Positions 39,538 to 61,714 of a stretch of DNA of 64,000 nucleotides are shown here, piece after piece. The position numbers and the translations under genes were made by a program. The stretch spans positions 2,368,001 to 2,432,000 of the forward strand of contig CM000150.2 of the NCBI GenBank assembly GCA_000004695.1, in the 5' to 3' direction. This stretch comes from Dictyostelium discoideum. Its lineage: Eukaryota. How positions within the stretch are numbered: position 1 is the first letter of the stretch; every line of letters starts with the position of its first letter. Under the pieces are notes generated by a model, which was not told where the DNA came from, did no database searches, and saw only the letters and a list, made by a program, of their open reading frames with translations.

Positions 39538-40348
39538 GGTTATTTCCTAAAATGGATAAACTTTAATTAAGAAAACTTTAAACTGTCTTCATCAAAAATC
39601 ACATCAGGCAAATTAAAAATATTAAAAATCAAAAAATCAACGACTATTCTATACCAAACACAGTTTTACCAAAACAGAGTATTTGTAGATCAATTTATTT
39701 AAGATATAGTAACTCTAAAATAATATAGCATACTATTTTATTATTGAAATATTTAATTAACTAATCCTATAAATTTAAAAATATAAATAAACAAAATAAA
39801 CAACATTTGGAGCTTCTACAAATCTAGAAAATAATTAATCTAAAAAAAAAAAAAAAATAAAATAAACTTTGGTTAAGTCAATGCTAAAAAAAAAAATCAA
39901 ACCAAATGAAGGATACCACTTTAAAACTAAAAAATATTCATTCTTAAAAAAAAAAAAAAAAAAAAAAAAAAAAAAGTCATATTTTTTAATTTTTTTTTTT
40001 TTTTAATAAAAATTTTCAAAGAATTAACCCAATCACACATGTCCCAAAATTATTATGACAATACAGACTTTCTTTCTTTCACATTCTAAAATGAAATCGA
40101 ATTAATTTCATTCTTTTTGATAATGGTTTATTTTCGATGTTTTGATTTTATTTTTATATTTAAACTCTTTAATAATTTTAATTTTTATTAATCAATCAAA
40201 CATAAATTTAATATATACATATAATAAATATAAATAATTATAAATTAATAAATAATAATATTAAAAAAATCATATATTAATAATATAAATAAATAGCCAT
40301 AAATTAAAAATCATTTTTTTAAAAAAAAATATATATTTAAAAAAAAGA

Positions 40349-40934
40349 ATGACAAAATTAAAAGTTGGAAATATTGCACCAGATTTTGAAGCTAAAAATT
40401 ATTTAGGTCAAACAGTTACATTAAAAGAATTTAAAGAAAAGAGTCAACCAATCGTTTTATATTTTTATCCAAAAGATAATAGTCCAGTATGTACAAAAGG
40501 TAAGTCAATTTATATTAAATGTTTTTTTTTATTTTTTTTTTTAAATTACTAATAATAAATAACCTTTTTAATATAATAATTCATACATACATACAAACAC
40601 ACACATATATATCAATATAGAGAGTTGTGAATTTAGAGATAAATATCAAAAGTTTATAGAAGCAGGCGCAGAAGTAATCGGAGTCAGTAGCGATGGTGAG
40701 GATAGTCATAAATCATTCGTTTCAAAATATTCATTACCATTCACATTATTAACAGATAAACATAGTAAATTAGCCAAGTTATATGGTGTCAACGGTATAT
40801 TATTACCAGGTAGAAAAACATTTATAATTGATAAACATGGTATTATAGCTGGTATTCATGATGGTTTACTCAGCTCAACTTCTCATATCGATGAATCTTT
40901 AAAAATAATTGAAAAATTAAAATCACAAATCTAA
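40349..40934 (+). CDS. BCP/PrxQ-type peroxiredoxin (thiol peroxidase), copy 1. Two exons, 40349-40499 and 40621-40934.
   Basis: [51 protein letters not shown] / [56 protein letters not shown].... The peroxidatic Cys lies in the PVCTKE context. The intron is gtaagt...atatcaatatag (121 nt) and is phase 1. Confidence 0.8.
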
Positions 40935-42109
40935 ATAATAATTTTTATAATAAATTGTACATGCCCACCCACCTTTGTAATTTTTTTTTATAATAAATTG
41001 TAAATTTTTACGTTTTATAATAACTCCAATATTTCTTAAAGTTTAAATAATTTATTTAAAAGTTTTTTAAAAAATTTAAAATAAATAAATAAATAAATAA
41101 ATAAATAAATAAATAAATATTTAAAACATAAAGTTCTTCTGAAAGCCTGTAAAGGTTTTGAAAAGTTATATGGTAACAATTGTTATTATTTTTAGATTTG
41201 TTTTTTCTTTAAAAGTTCATAACTAAATCTAATCTTTTGAGTGTTGTAATATAATTGTGTAATAATTAAATTGTTACAATAAAATAATGTTTTATCAACA
41301 TATTAAATTAGATATAATCTCGCTCTCAAACTAAAATAATTTATGATTATAATTAGACTTTTCTCACCTAGGTGGGAAAAAGCCACTTGGTGAGTTTTTA
41401 ATGTCGATTGAAAAACTTATAAACATAATTTCAAATCTCAAATATAAAAAGTAAAAATTTTCAATAGTAAAAGACATTCATAATAAATTTTAGATTTTGT
41501 CGATAACATCAACTTATTACTTTATTTTTATTTATATATATTTATTTATTTATTTTAATTTTATTTTTCTATTACAAGATTCTGATAAAACATGAGCAAT
41601 AATTTAGGCGAGTATTTTTAACTAATTTTATTTAACTAATAAATCATTTATATAAATTATTGTGTTAATGTTCAACATTTGAGGGTATATTTGATAAATC
41701 CTGAAATTAAAAGATAACTAACCAAAAAATTTATAATTTTAAAAAAGAGAGGGAAGAAGAGCAACTAAATTATTTATTAATAATAACACAAACCTACTCT
41801 AATAGATCAAATTACAAAAACATTATTATTTTCATCTTTTTTAAATACCTTTTTTTTTTTTTTTGGAATATTTAAAAAAAAAAAAAAAGATAAATAATGT
41901 TTTGCGTTTGATGTATTAATACACAAAATCACAGAAATATTTTTGAATTTTTTTTTTTTTCAATATTTCATTCCTAATTTTTTACTTCTTTTTAATTAAA
42001 ACCATCATTTTTTAACTTTTGGTGGCACTAATGATGGCACCAATGCCAAAAATCTTTTATTAGTTTTTTTAAAGAAATTTCATTATCTTTTCTTTTTTTT
42101 TTTTTTTTT

Positions 42110-42847
42110 ACCTGTGATCAGACCTTCAAGGAATGTCCTTGTGTCTTTTCAGCGGTGTTTGTTAAACGATTTTATTTTTATTATTCAATTGTATTAAATT
42201 TTTTAAACTATATTATATTTTTTTTTTTTTTTTTTTTTTTTTTTTTTTTTTACTACTACTTAAATTGGAAGAGGGTTCGGAGCTGCTGGAGTTTGCCAGG
42301 CTTTGTTGAATTTGTATTTGTGAAGATCTTGATTGGTGTTTTTTAGTATTGCTTCGTCGTGTTTGATTTTCTTTAGTGTGATGAATTTTTCAGTTTCGAT
42401 GAGATTTAGTAATTCTGTTTCTATGACCTTTTGTTCGAATTTTGGCTCTGGTTTGCTTTCATCAGTGTTGAACAATTTGTGACAGATTATCTTCCATAAT
42501 TGGTGTGCTATTATTCCTATGAGATTGGGGAAGATTCTCTCAGTTCTGTTGTATTTTGATATGTCTAAGGTATCCATTGACCATCTGTGGATTTTGATGA
42601 ATGATAATTTGTTAACTGTTGATATGATGGTTTTTTCAATATATAGGATATCTTGGCATAGAGTGAAGAGGTGAGAATAAGGGTCTCTGAATAGGTGGCC
42701 ACAGATCTTGCATCTGGTGTCTCTTTCGTGGTTGATACCTGGAAGTGATCTTGAGAAGAATCTGAAGAGGGTGTTTCTACCTTTTTGGTGAGAAATGCTG
42801 TTGATGTTTATGAATACTTTGGGTATTGCTGTGTTGTATCTCACCAT
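42110..42847 (-). mobile_element. TRE3-family 3' fragment (same subfamily as 36932-39537): the last ~190 codons of ORF2 plus the C-module
   Basis: A 195-aa ORF ...CKICGHLFRDPYSHLF...WQTPAAPNPLPI. The reverse complement of the C-module, acctgtgatcagaccttcaaggaatgtcc, lies at 42110. Confidence 0.7.
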
Positions 42848-42879
42848 TTCATTATCTTTTCAGTTACAATAAAAAATTA

Positions 42880-59945: not shown

Positions 59946-59961
59946 AAAAAAAAAAAAAAAA

Positions 59962-60105
59962 AAAAAAACCAAATGTGTAATACACTTTGCTAAGGTGTCA
60001 TCGAAAACCAAATGGGTAATAAACTTTGCCAAGGTATCATCGAAAAATATTTGGTGATACACTTCGCTAAGGTGTCATTGAAAAATAAACCACCACAAGA
60101 CTAAT
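59962..60105 (-). repeat. Three inverted copies of the tRNA-Ser 5'-half/leader ~45-bp unit
   Basis: ccaaatgtgtaatacactttgctaaggtgtcatcgaaaaccaaatgggtaataaactttgccaaggtatcatcgaaaaa... Confidence 0.6.
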
Positions 60106-60474
60106 TTTTTAATTAATAATTTTTTTTTTAATTGTTTTATTGTTTTTTTTTTTTTTTTTTTTAAGACTGTGGCGCTGACTATAATAATTTTTGAACCTTT
60201 ATTGAAATATAATTAAAAAAATACAAAAAATAAAAATAATTAGTAAAGTGACTGTTTTTTTATTTTTATAAAAATATTTTATAATATAAGTTGTTTTCTT
60301 TATTTATTTGTTTATTTATTTATTTTAATTTTTTTTTATTTTAAAAAAAAAAAAGTTTAAAACTTTTAAAATTATTTAAACTTTAAGAATTATTGGAGTT
60401 ATTTGGAATATTATAAAACAAAAAAAAATTACAAAGGTGGGTGGATATGTGCAATTTATTATAAAAATTATTAT

Positions 60475-61089
60475 TTAGATTTGTGATTTTAATTTTTCTA
60501 TTATTTTTAAAGATTCATCGATATGAGAAGTTGAGCTGAGTAAACCATCATGAATACCTGCTATAATACCATGTTTATCGATTATAAATGTTTTTCTACC
60601 TGGTAATAATATACCGTTGACACCATATAATTTGGCTAATTTACTATGTTTATCTGTTAATAATGTGAATGGTAATGAATATTTTGAAACGAATGATTTA
60701 TGACTATCTTCGCCATCGCTACTGACTCCAATTACTTCTGCGCCTGCTTCTATAAACTTTTGATATTTATCTCTAAATTCGCAACTCTCTATATTGATAT
60801 ATGTATGTGTGTAGGTATGTATGTATGTATGTTGGTGATATTATTATATTTAAAAGGTTATTTATTATTAGTATATTAAAAAAAAAGAAAAAAAACATTT
60901 AAGTTTATTGTATTATGTAATAATATTAACTAACTTACCTTTTGTACATACTGGACTATTATCTTTTGGATAAAAATATAAAACGATTGGTTGACTCTTT
61001 TCTTTAAATTCTTTTAATGTAACTGTTTGACCTAAATAATTTTTAGCTTCAAAATCTGGTGCAATATTTCCAACTTTTAATTTTGTCAT
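60475..61089 (-). CDS. BCP/PrxQ-type peroxiredoxin, copy 3, inverted (exons 61089-60939 and 60788-60475)
   Basis: The reverse complement is near-identical to copies 1 and 2, including the intron position and ~300 bp of 5' flank. Confidence 0.75.
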
Positions 61090-61714
61090 TCTTTTTTTTA
61101 TATATATATTTTTTATTTTTTTTTAAAAATGATTTTTTAATTTATGATTATTTATTACTGATTATTAATTTATGATTATTTATTAGTGATTATTAATTTA
61201 TGATTTCTATTTAATACTATTATTTGTTAATTTATATTTATTATATGTATAAATTAATTTATATTTGATTGGTTAATAAAAATTAAAATTATTAAAGAGT
61301 TTAAATATTAAAAATAAATTCTAAACATTGAAAATAAACCATCGTCGAAAAGAATGAAATTTATTCGATTTCATTTTAGAATGCGAAAGAAAGAAAGTCT
61401 GTGTGTATCGTCATATTAATTTTGGGACAGGGTGTGATCACGTTAATTCTTTGAAAATAATTATGGAAAAAAAAAAAAAAAAAATAAAAAAATAAAAATA
61501 AAAAAAATTTTGGCTTGGAACTCTTTTTTATTTTTTTAATACTTTTTTTATTTAATAATATTTTATTTTATTTTATTTTATTTTATCTTATTTTATTTAT
61601 TAATATTTTTTTTTTTTTTTTTTTTTTATTATTTTTATTATTAGAAATACATTAAGTATAATTATTATATTATTATATTATTATTATTATTATTTTTTAT
61701 TTTTTTTATTTTTT

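What the first reader, a model, noticed from the sequence alone, without database searches (positions are those of the whole stretch)
39960..61440. Three copies of a BCP/PrxQ peroxiredoxin gene, two direct and one inverted, on a ~1.3-kb duplicated unit interleaved with retroelements
The copies at 40349-40934, 47581-48221 and 60475-61089 share ~300 bp of promoter, the same phase-1 intron position and ~100 bp of 3' flank. Copy 2's intron has gained a (CATA)n tract. Copy 3 is inverted. The coding regions differ by a few substitutions, for example E/D at the exon junction. This suggests recent segmental duplication, possibly mediated by the flanking tDNA/TRE clusters, and possibly under dosage selection for peroxide defence.
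Basis: seen in the sequence. Interest (0 to 1): 0.5.

Follow-up and report, generated by a model that had tools for sequence, protein, structure and literature searches.

The report
Old three-copy BCP peroxiredoxin gene cluster
The window (Dictyostelium discoideum AX4, chromosome 1) really does carry three intact, almost identical BCP/PrxQ peroxiredoxin genes, but they are already-annotated members of an old gene array whose copy number varies between lineages and into which tRNA-targeted retroelements inserted later, so this is not a recent retroelement-driven duplication.

Summary
There are three intact 154-aa, two-exon BCP/PrxQ genes at exactly the stated coordinates. All have the phase-1 intron after nt 151. 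They differ at 11 CDS sites, 10 of them synonymous and one giving E51D in copy 2.

They are not an assembly artefact. An independent long-read assembly (GCA_054883475.1) is colinear with the window and holds each unit at 100% identity.

The genes are already annotated in AX4 as EAL71978, EAL71980 and EAL71985, 'AhpC/TSA family protein'.

- **Age.** Related assemblies carry the same locus (eEF1A, 475-aa gene, prx array, Rab-like GTPase, tRNAs, prx array, TM_HPP) with 4 and 8 full-length copies. A fourth assembly (H) has four gene copies, at least one of them truncated. Non-coding sequence groups each window copy with its positional orthologue: 24 sites by position, 0 by genome. The triplication therefore predates a lineage split of dS about 0.07-0.09 and is not recent.
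- **Retroelements.** They sit at the canonical tRNA-targeted distances and lie outside the repeat unit. They are mostly lineage-specific. They did not mediate the duplication.
- **Selection.** Purifying selection is strong (dN/dS about 0.02), and there is evidence of gene conversion among copies. Dosage selection is plausible but untested.

This is an ordinary finding of low interest.

The parts
40349..40934 (+). prx copy 1 (c1): BCP/PrxQ peroxiredoxin gene, exons 40349-40499 and 40621-40934, 154 aa. It is annotated in AX4 with a protein identical to c3's (EAL71978.1/EAL71985.1). The repeat unit spans about 39977-41125.
47581..48221 (+). prx copy 2 (c2): exons 47581-47731 and 47908-48221, 154 aa, carrying E51D (EAL71980.1 / XP_645830.1 / Q55EF1). 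The intron has (ACAT)16. The repeat unit is only about 47348-48345. The conserved upstream element found at about -330 in the other copies is missing.
60475..61089 (-). prx copy 3 (c3), inverted: exons 61089-60939 and 60788-60475, 154 aa, protein identical to c1's. The repeat unit spans about 60290-61480.
36737..36808 (+). tRNA-Thr(AGT). It marks the left end of the locus in all four lineages.
36928..39976 (+). TRE3-like non-LTR retroelement (RT ORF 37228-39381) starting about 119 bp downstream of tRNA-Thr. It ends in poly(A) directly against the c1 unit. The same poly(A)/GTCATA junction is present in G and F, so this insertion is old.
42094..42845 (-). TRE3-like 3' fragment. It is 98-99% identical to 38796-39537 (inverted) and to 51004-51755 (direct).
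43874..43960 (-). 87-nt tRNA gene, called Leu(CAA) by ARAGORN. The isotype call is unstable (see the passing notes). Its orientation is opposite to that in G and F.
44013..46171 (.). TRE5-like fragments. One begins about 52 bp upstream of the 87-nt tRNA. Another (45466-46171) ends 43 bp upstream of tRNA-Ser.
46215..46297 (+). tRNA-Ser(GCT), left copy of an inverted pair.
46846..47270 (+). Second, inverted copy of the Rab gene's 3' flank (78% identical to 49872-49482). It abuts the truncated c2 promoter.
48810..49466 (+). Single-copy Rab/Ras-family small GTPase gene (218 aa) lying between the two convergent groups of prx copies. It is conserved at this position in all lineages examined.
51004..56755 (-). 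TRE3-like non-LTR retroelement sequences, including a 1149-aa APE+RT ORF (52227-55676).
56792..56874 (-). tRNA-Ser(GCT), right copy of the inverted pair.
56922..59955 (.). TRE5-like element (RT ORF 57787-59457) beginning about 48 bp upstream of tRNA-Ser(-).
61715..63239 (-). ORFs matching the conserved neighbouring '475-aa' gene, which lies next to c3 and its orthologues, with eEF1A beyond it in the other assemblies.

Best explanation
The three genes are the AX4 members of an old gene cluster of a thioredoxin-fold BCP/PrxQ peroxiredoxin. Copy number in this cluster varies between lineages.

Locus layout: the copies lie in two convergent groups on either side of a small tRNA cluster and a Rab-like GTPase gene. 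The whole lies between tRNA-Thr/TM_HPP on one side and the 475-aa gene/eEF1A on the other.

Origin: the copies arose by DNA-level duplication of a unit of about 1.1-1.7 kb (promoter, two exons, intron and 3' flank). The mechanism was presumably unequal crossing-over, which is inferred. This happened before the AX4 lineage separated from the lineages of assemblies G, F and H.

Later history: copy number has since changed by lineage. AX4 has 3 copies, F has 4, G has 8, and H has 4 of which at least one is truncated. Copies exchange sequence by gene conversion, and the protein is held almost invariant by purifying selection.

Retroelements: tRNA-gene-targeted elements (TRE5-like, TRE3-like, and an LTR element in H) inserted next to the resident tRNA genes. 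In AX4 they pushed the copies 6-12 kb apart. A local rearrangement also left c2 plus the Rab gene bracketed by an inverted duplication of the tRNA-Ser segment.

Biochemistry (inferred): Cys48 in the PxxxSxxC motif attacks peroxide. Cys53, five residues on, forms the resolving disulfide, which thioredoxin then reduces. The multiple copies most plausibly add to enzyme dose, which is also inferred.
For: Gene structure and identity:
- Three intact genes; 10 of 11 variable CDS sites are synonymous.
- Pfam AhpC-TSA, E = 3.8e-41.
- The best solved relative is Sulfolobus Bcp1 (3drn, E = 2e-35). The alignment covers the Cp and Cp+5 positions and the conserved Arg.
- The best NCBIfam models are Bcp (PRK09437) and PrxQ.
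- The genes are already annotated on the 4,923,596-bp AX4 chromosome.

Reality of the copies:
- The independent assembly is colinear and holds all three units at 100% identity.

Conservation of the locus:
- The same locus holds 4 and 8 full-length copies in F and G. H has 4 gene copies, of which one is truncated, one frameshifted and one only partly read.
- All 17 copies in the window, G, F and a second locus are intact, with mean dN/dS of 0.018.

Age:
- The non-coding NJ tree groups c1 with G_10001, c2 with G_17237/F_15496, and c3 with G_25599/F_18800.
- 24 non-coding sites group by position and 0 by genome.
- dS of the Rab neighbour between lineages is 0.07-0.09.

Gene conversion:
- Recombination among copies: PHI-like test p = 0.0005. 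104 of 210 CDS site pairs fail the four-gamete test.
- The CDS tree groups the window copies together.

Retroelements:
- They sit at the canonical distances from tRNA genes (PMC5006619, PMC3159450).
Against: - The mechanism of the original duplication is inferred, not shown.
- Outgroup look-ups in D. citrinum and D. dimigraforme returned only dispersed single-copy loci. How much older than the discoideum complex the array is remains unknown.
- The CDS-versus-non-coding contrast that suggests coding-biased gene conversion is only marginal for the window copies (Fisher p = 0.03-0.05, and the pairs are not independent).
- No single inversion converts the G/F layout into the window/H layout. At least two events are needed, and the tRNA at 43874-43960 has its own orientation change.
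- Low codon bias (C-ending fraction 0.14-0.19, against 0.54 for eEF1A) and decayed copies in H weaken the dosage argument.
- No expression or enzyme data were available.
Confidence: 0.85

Rival explanations
1. One reading: a recent segmental duplication in the AX4 lineage, caused by recombination between, or transduction by, the flanking TRE/tDNA clusters.
For: The copies are now separated by TRE-like elements and tRNA genes. c1 is bracketed by inverted TRE3-like copies (I2, I10). A TRE3 poly(A) tail abuts the c1 unit. The CDS of the three window copies are slightly closer to each other than to their orthologues.
Against: - Non-coding sequence shows positional orthology with G and F: 24 sites by position against 0 by genome.
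- The arrays in G and F have no retroelements between copies.
- The TRE3 tail occurs only at the tRNA-Thr-adjacent copy, and it is shared by the window, G and F.
- The introns are retained, so there was no RNA intermediate.
- TRE positions are explained by tRNA targeting (PMC5006619).
Confidence: 0.04
2. Assembly artefact: one locus was written two or three times by the assembler.
For: None found. The region is rich in repeats, which is where such errors occur.
Against: - The copies differ at 11 CDS sites and by 12.6-17.5% in non-coding DNA, with different intron lengths.
- Each lies in distinct unique flanks.
- An independent de novo assembly reproduces all three units at 100% identity and colinearly. 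According to PMC12324515 these are Nanopore plus Illumina assemblies.
Confidence: 0.01
3. Same origin as in the best explanation, but copy number is selectively neutral. The extra copies stay intact mainly because gene conversion from functional neighbours repairs them, and there is no selection for enzyme dose.
For: - Copy number ranges from 3 to 8 with no obvious constraint.
- H carries a truncated copy and frameshifted copies.
- Codon bias is low.
- There is a clear recombination signal among copies.
- c2 has lost the conserved upstream element yet keeps its ORF.
Against: - All 17 copies in three genomes are intact, with dN/dS of 0.018.
- The non-coding parts of the same units have diverged by 11-20%. 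Conversion therefore does not homogenise whole units, and purifying selection on each ORF is the simpler account.
- The frameshifts in H may be long-read errors.
Confidence: 0.35

Closest known systems
BCP/PrxQ subfamily of peroxiredoxins (E. coli Bcp, Sulfolobus solfataricus Bcp1 PDB 3drn, plant PrxQ, yeast Dot5)
   Same: About 150-aa single-domain thioredoxin fold. PxxxS/TxxC peroxidatic Cys (C48). Second Cys five residues later (C53). Conserved Arg in the GRKTF stretch. The best PDB and NCBIfam matches are Bcp/PrxQ.
   Different: It is a eukaryotic, intron-containing gene present in several near-identical copies. It scores below the NCBIfam equivalog cut-offs, which were built for prokaryotes. 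Activity and reductant have not been tested.
Copy-number-variable tandem arrays of stress-protection genes, for example yeast CUP1 (PMC12637435)
   Same: A short unit (1-2 kb) containing one small protective-enzyme or protein gene, repeated head to tail. The copy number differs between isolates, and the proteins are near-identical.
   Different: Here the copies form two convergent groups around a tRNA/Rab segment. The copies are old (12-20% non-coding divergence) rather than recently amplified. No link between copy number and tolerance has been shown.
tRNA-gene-targeted retrotransposons of Dictyostelium (TRE5, TRE3, DGLT-A; PMC5006619, PMC3159450)
   Same: Non-LTR APE+RT elements beginning about 43-52 bp upstream of tRNA genes, and one about 119 bp downstream. 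This is exactly as described for TRE5 and TRE3.
   Different: They are bystanders to the peroxiredoxin duplication, not its cause. Subfamily names were not checked against reference element sequences.
Annotated D. discoideum AX4 genes EAL71978.1, EAL71980.1 (XP_645830.1, Q55EF1) and EAL71985.1, 'AhpC/TSA family protein'
   Same: Exact protein sequence matches to c1/c3 and to c2.
   Different: None. These are the same genes. AX4 also has further near-identical paralogues on the same chromosome: EAL73549.1 (Q55FA7) and EAL72046.1 (Q55E48).

Membership tests
BCP/PrxQ peroxiredoxin | AhpC/TSA (thioredoxin-fold) domain covering most of a protein of about 150-160 aa | tested here: met
   Pfam PF00578, E = 3.8e-41, 140 bits against a cut-off of 26, residues 6-127
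BCP/PrxQ peroxiredoxin | Peroxidatic Cys in a PxxxT/SxxC motif | tested here: met
   P41-K-D-N-S45-P-V-C48 read from the translation. It aligns to the Cp position of 3drn and 5enu.
BCP/PrxQ peroxiredoxin | Resolving Cys five residues after Cp (CxxxxC), typical of many BCP/PrxQ members | tested here: met
   C48-T-K-E-S-C53. Both positions align with the two mutated Cys positions of Sulfolobus Bcp1 3drn.
BCP/PrxQ peroxiredoxin | Conserved active-site Arg | tested here: met
   R115 in [11 protein letters not shown] aligns with R in ILPARITFVID of 3drn
BCP/PrxQ peroxiredoxin | Closer to BCP/PrxQ than to the Prx1/AhpC, Prx6, Prx5, Tpx or AhpE subfamilies | tested here: met
   The top PDB hits are Bcp proteins (E = 2e-35 to 1e-15), against about 1e-12 for typical 2-Cys Prx. 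The top NCBIfam models are Bcp PRK09437 and PrxQ, although both are below their equivalog cut-offs.
BCP/PrxQ peroxiredoxin | Thioredoxin-dependent peroxidase activity | not testable with these tools
   Needs an enzyme assay
Recent segmental duplication | Paralogues closer to each other than to orthologues in the nearest diverged lineages, across the whole unit | tested here: not met
   The non-coding tree and site patterns group copies by position. Only the CDS weakly groups them by genome.
Retroelement-mediated duplication (TRE recombination or 3' transduction) | Repeat-unit boundaries coincide with retroelement ends, or copies lack introns or carry poly(A) and target-site duplications | tested here: not met
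   All copies keep the intron. The tandem copies in G and F have no retroelement between them. The TRE3 tail occurs only at the tRNA-Thr-adjacent copy.
Tandem gene array with concerted evolution | Head-to-tail copies at a regular period | tested here: met
   In G there are six copies spaced 1607-1704 bp apart, and in F there are three. In the window itself the copies are no longer adjacent.
Tandem gene array with concerted evolution | Sequence exchange (gene conversion) among copies | tested here: met
   PHI-like permutation test p = 0.0005. 104 of 210 CDS site pairs are incompatible. The strength of any bias towards coding sequence is uncertain.
TRE5/TRE3 tRNA-targeted non-LTR retrotransposons | APE endonuclease plus reverse transcriptase ORF, inserted about 50 bp upstream (TRE5) or about 100 bp downstream (TRE3) of tRNA genes | tested here: met
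   RVT_1 and Exo_endo_phos domains. Distances of 43-52 bp upstream and about 119 bp downstream. The targeting rule is from PMC5006619 and PMC3159450. Identity to the reference TRE sequences was not tested.

The most novel reading that the evidence does not exclude
The two convergent groups of peroxiredoxin copies might act as a recombination cassette. Inverted copies would drive repeated inversion of the central tRNA/Rab segment. Coding-biased gene conversion would keep all copies encoding the same enzyme. Copy number (3 to 8) would be tuned between Dictyostelium lineages by selection for peroxide defence, for example against the oxidative load of phagocytosis or particular prey bacteria.
Probability: 0.15. 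Interest if true: 0.35.

Novelty: already known. Interest (0 to 1): 0.15.

Why it matters
It matters little beyond curation. The genes have been in the reference annotation since the AX4 genome was published, and small clustered gene families are common in Dictyostelium.

Three modest points are useful:
- Near-identical paralogues such as these confound knock-outs, RNA-seq mapping and variant calling. Anyone studying oxidative-stress genes in AX2/AX4 should know there are three here, plus at least two more on chromosome 1.
- The locus is a clean example showing that TRE insertions follow resident tRNA genes and do not create the neighbouring duplications.
- The 3-to-8 copy range among the new long-read assemblies gives a simple natural series for testing whether peroxiredoxin dose matters.

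Tried and rejected
- **Literature.** Searches for the UniProt/RefSeq identifiers and for Dictyostelium BCP/AhpC papers found nothing specific. One microarray study lists several 'AhpC/TSA family' genes responding to Pseudomonas, but its DDB identifiers could not be mapped to these genes. The AX4 genome paper is not held.
- **Outgroups.** Look-ups of cluster members from D. dimigraforme and D. citrinum returned only single-copy genes at other loci. They could not polarise copy number or orientation at this locus.
- **Rearrangement history.** I tried to explain the difference between the window/H layout and the G/F layout by one inversion through recombination between inverted prx copies. No single inversion fits. 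At least two events are needed.
- **Gene conversion in exon 1.** Exon 1 has 0-1 differences. With about 30 synonymous sites this is not significant on its own.
- **BLAST extension.** The extension of the c1/c3 homology to 39830/61642 is low-complexity A/T sequence and a TRE3 tail, not part of the unit.
- **Codon bias.** Used as a proxy for expression level, it is low and uninformative.
- **Horizontal transfer.** The closest non-dictyostelid relatives are bacterial BCPs at about 50-55% identity. I did not pursue this. The gene has an intron and is present across dictyostelids.

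
Full report
**What is in the window.**
The window is very AT-rich (about 20-30% G+C) and carries nine tRNA genes. A repeat scan of 39000-62500 finds the claimed direct and inverted matches. Reading the three stretches and building gene models gives three intact two-exon genes:
- c1, + strand: 40349-40499 / 40621-40934
- c2, + strand: 47581-47731 / 47908-48221
- c3, - strand: 61089-60939 / 60788-60475

Each has a 465-nt ORF of 154 aa and a GT..AG intron after nt 151 (phase 1). Intron lengths are 121, 176 and 150 nt. 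Pairs differ at 7-8 CDS positions. Of the 11 variable sites, 10 are synonymous. The remaining one is GAG to GAT, giving E51D in c2, at the codon split by the intron. c1 and c3 encode the same protein.

**Extent of the repeat unit.**
A three-way alignment and self-BLAST show the following:
- c1 and c3 share about 39977-41125 with 61480-60290, roughly 1.15 kb.
- c2 shares only 47348-48345, roughly 1.0 kb.
- The longer BLAST extent of about 1.3 kb runs through A/T-rich low-complexity DNA.

Divergence is 0-2.5% in the exons. It is 9-16% (mismatches only, plus many indels) in the promoter, intron and 3' flank.

The (CATA)n tract in c2's intron is an expansion to n=16 of an (ACAT)n microsatellite. 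That microsatellite is present at n=2-4 in most family members. It has expanded independently elsewhere, to n=13, 23 and 35.

**What the gene is.**
- Pfam gives AhpC-TSA at E = 3.8e-41.
- The best solved relative is Sulfolobus solfataricus Bcp1 (3drn, E = 2e-35), followed by other Bcp proteins. Typical 2-Cys peroxiredoxins score about 1e-12.
- The alignment shows the P41xxxS45xxC48 motif, a second Cys at +5 (C53) and the conserved Arg115.
- The best NCBIfam models are Bcp (PRK09437) and PrxQ. Both are below their prokaryote-tuned equivalog cut-offs.

This is a BCP/PrxQ-type peroxiredoxin. The catalytic cycle is inferred from the family: Cys48 sulfenic acid, then a Cys48-Cys53 disulfide, then reduction by thioredoxin.

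**Source and prior annotation.**
An exact-sequence look-up identifies the proteins as Dictyostelium discoideum AX4 EAL71978.1/EAL71985.1 (c1/c3) and EAL71980.1 = XP_645830.1 = Q55EF1 (c2). They are named 'AhpC/TSA family protein' and lie on a 4,923,596-bp chromosome. The same 90%-identity cluster holds two further AX4 paralogues (Q55FA7 and Q55E48) and members from related species. The genes are therefore already annotated. I found no paper that discusses them specifically. One microarray study lists several AhpC/TSA genes responding to Pseudomonas, but its identifiers cannot be mapped to these genes.

**Not an assembly artefact.**
The protein look-ups returned the same locus from several new NCBI assemblies. 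A preprint describes these as Nanopore plus Illumina de novo assemblies of AX2-214 and wild isolates (PMC12324515). GCA_054883475.1 is probably AX2-214, which is my inference. It is colinear with window 34920-64000 at 99.5-99.7%. It contains each of the three units at 100% identity at colinear positions.

**The locus in related lineages.**
I merged overlapping loci into three contigs:
- G: GCA_054859355.1
- F: GCA_054859385.1
- H: GCA_054859205.1, labelled 'D. cf. discoideum'

Layouts, where > and < show orientation:
- G: TM_HPP> tRNA-Thr> prx> prx> tRNA(87 nt)> tRNA-Ser> <Rab <prx x6 <475-aa gene <eEF1A
- F: the same, with 1 + 3 copies
- H: Thr> prx(truncated)> <tRNA(87 nt) [LTR retroelement] prx> prx> Rab> ... 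<tRNA-Ser ... <prx <460-aa <eEF1A
- Window: Thr> [TRE3] c1> [<TRE3] <tRNA(87 nt) [TRE5] tRNA-Ser> c2> Rab> [TRE3/TRE5, <tRNA-Ser] <c3 <475-aa gene

In G the six copies sit 1607-1704 bp apart with nothing between them. The locus is thus a cluster with two convergent groups of copies and 3, 4, 4 or 8 members.

These lineages are well separated. dS of the single-copy Rab-like gene is 0.07-0.09 between the window and G, F or H. It is 0.015 between G and F.

**Age of the duplication.**
All 17 copies from the window, G, F and a second two-copy locus (L001) are intact. There are 40 variable CDS sites, 36 of them at third codon positions. Mean dN/dS is 0.018.

An NJ tree of non-coding sequence (280 bp upstream, the intron and 170 bp downstream) groups each window copy with the copy at the same position in G and F:
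- c1 with the tRNA-Thr-adjacent copy
- c2 with the Rab-adjacent copy
- c3 with the copy next to the 475-aa gene

In a direct site count, 24 non-coding sites group by position and none by genome. Non-coding divergence between the window's own copies is 12.6-17.5%. To their positional orthologues it is 11-15%. The three copies therefore already existed before these lineages split. 'Recent' is not supported.

**Concerted evolution.**
The CDS behaves differently from the non-coding sequence:
- The window copies are 7-8 differences apart but 8-14 from their orthologues.
- The CDS tree puts them together.
- The ratio of coding to non-coding differences is lower for paralogue pairs than for orthologue pairs. 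Fisher p is 0.03-0.05, which is marginal, and the pairs are not independent.
- Across all 17 copies a PHI-like permutation test gives p = 0.0005.
- Half of the informative CDS site pairs (104 of 210) fail the four-gamete test.

Gene conversion among copies is well supported. That it is concentrated in the coding region is only suggested.

**Role of the retroelements.**
The ORFs between the copies carry RT and APE domains. TRE5-like sequences begin 43-52 bp upstream of the 87-nt tRNA and of both tRNA-Ser genes. One TRE3-like element begins about 119 bp downstream of tRNA-Thr. These are the published integration windows (PMC5006619; PMC3159450).

Most insertions are lineage-specific. H instead has an LTR element at the 87-nt tRNA. 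One insertion is old: the TRE3 poly(A)/GTCATA junction directly upstream of the c1 unit is shared by the window, G and F, and in G and F the element is internally deleted. That tail is found only at the tRNA-Thr-adjacent copy. Other copies are preceded by array spacer or by the spacer to the 475-aa gene.

The retroelements came to the tRNA genes. They do not delimit the repeat unit. The retained introns exclude an RNA intermediate.

**Rearrangement in AX4.**
c2 plus the Rab gene has the same orientation in the window and H but the opposite orientation in G and F.

In the window this block is bracketed by an inverted duplication:
- Left copy: Ser-upstream flank 45274-45446, TRE5 remnant 45466-46171, tRNA-Ser 46215-46297, and a copy of the Rab 3' flank at 46846-47270.
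- Right copy: the mirror image from 60072 back to 49482, interrupted by further TRE insertions.

H, G and F lack the left copy. The junction at 47270-47348 truncates c2's upstream region at -233. This removes a conserved element (T-run ... CAAAGAATTAAC.TGATCACACATGTCCCAAAATTAATATGA) present at about -330 in c1, c3 and nearly all other copies. I could not derive the G/F layout from the window/H layout with fewer than two inversions.

**Dosage.**
- For dosage selection: every copy in three genomes keeps an almost invariant protein.
- Against, or neutral: H has a truncated copy and one or two frameshifted copies, which may be long-read errors. Codon bias is low, with a C-ending fraction of 0.14-0.19 against 0.54 for the neighbouring eEF1A. 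c2 has lost its upstream element.

No expression data could be linked to these genes. Dosage selection is plausible and untested.

**Verdict.**
These are annotated genes from an old peroxiredoxin cluster whose copy number varies between lineages and which was later invaded by tRNA-targeted retroelements. It is an ordinary feature of this genome, with minor practical relevance for people working on paralogous oxidative-stress genes.

Noticed in passing
window 47270-47581, compared with 39990-40060 and 61480-61410: c2 lacks the conserved upstream element (T-run + CAAAGAATTAAC.TGATCACACATGTCCCAAAATTAATATGA, at about -330 to -290). That element is present in c1, c3 and almost all copies in G, F and H. 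c2's homology stops at -233, at a rearrangement junction, so c2 may be regulated differently or be weakly expressed.
   Followed up: partly
window 45274-47270 versus 60072-49482: An inverted duplication brackets c2 and the Rab-like gene. It comprises the tRNA-Ser upstream flank, a TRE5 remnant, tRNA-Ser(GCT) and the Rab 3' flank. The arms are 78-96% identical. The left arm is absent from assemblies H, G and F.
   Followed up: partly
window 47348-50222 versus G 17480-14872 and H 21940-24628: The prx-Rab(-tRNA-Ser) block has opposite orientation in G and F compared with the window and H. No single inversion relates the layouts. At least two events are needed, and the polarity is unknown.
   Followed up: partly
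window 43874-43960 (-); F 11072-11158: ARAGORN calls this 87-nt tRNA gene Leu(CAA) in the window, G and H. It calls it Trp(CCA) in F, although the sequences differ by one base outside the anticodon. The isotype call is therefore unstable. It may be an intron-containing tRNA. Only about 98 bp around it are conserved between lineages, and its orientation differs.
   Followed up: partly
window 39601-39976; G about 9240-9620; F about 9280-9605: The 3' end, poly(A) and junction (AAAAAGTCATA) of the TRE3-like element downstream of tRNA-Thr are shared by the window, G and F. This insertion is therefore older than the lineage split. The G and F copies are internally deleted to about 0.4 kb, and no RT gene is called there.
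   Followed up: yes
L001 8148-10675 (GCA_054859355.1, 0.3 Mb from the main locus); L009, L013-L017: There are further near-identical BCP genes elsewhere. These are a two-copy tandem locus in G with (ACAT)23 and (ACAT)35 introns, and conserved single-copy loci next to a DCD-domain gene and a cyclophilin gene in D. citrinum, D. dimigraforme and others. AX4 has at least five genes in the 90% cluster.
   Followed up: partly
H composite (L012/L010): copies at 10001, 20181, 22053 and 32001: In 'D. cf. discoideum' the tRNA-Thr-adjacent copy is truncated after exon-2 nt 225, next to the tRNA and an LTR retroelement. The copy next to the 460-aa gene has a 1-nt frameshift. A separate copy (L011) is also frameshifted. 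These may be real decay or long-read homopolymer errors.
   Followed up: no
window versus G, F and H generally: Assemblies labelled D. discoideum (GCA_054859355.1 and GCA_054859385.1) differ from the window by dS of about 0.07-0.09 in a single-copy gene and by about 12-16% in alignable non-coding DNA. That is comparable to the 'cf. discoideum' assembly and is consistent with the cryptic-species comment in PMC12324515.
   Followed up: partly
window 1-36700: The rest of the window holds six more tRNA genes: Glu, Gln x2 in opposite orientation, Asn, Lys and Thr. It also holds many TRE-like repeats, for example 22485-23684 versus 36118-34920 at 99.8%, and tandem ~200-bp modules at 35823-36689. Long low-complexity coding-like repeats lie at 7900-8950, 11300-11490 and 19170-19420. 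None of these was examined.
   Followed up: no
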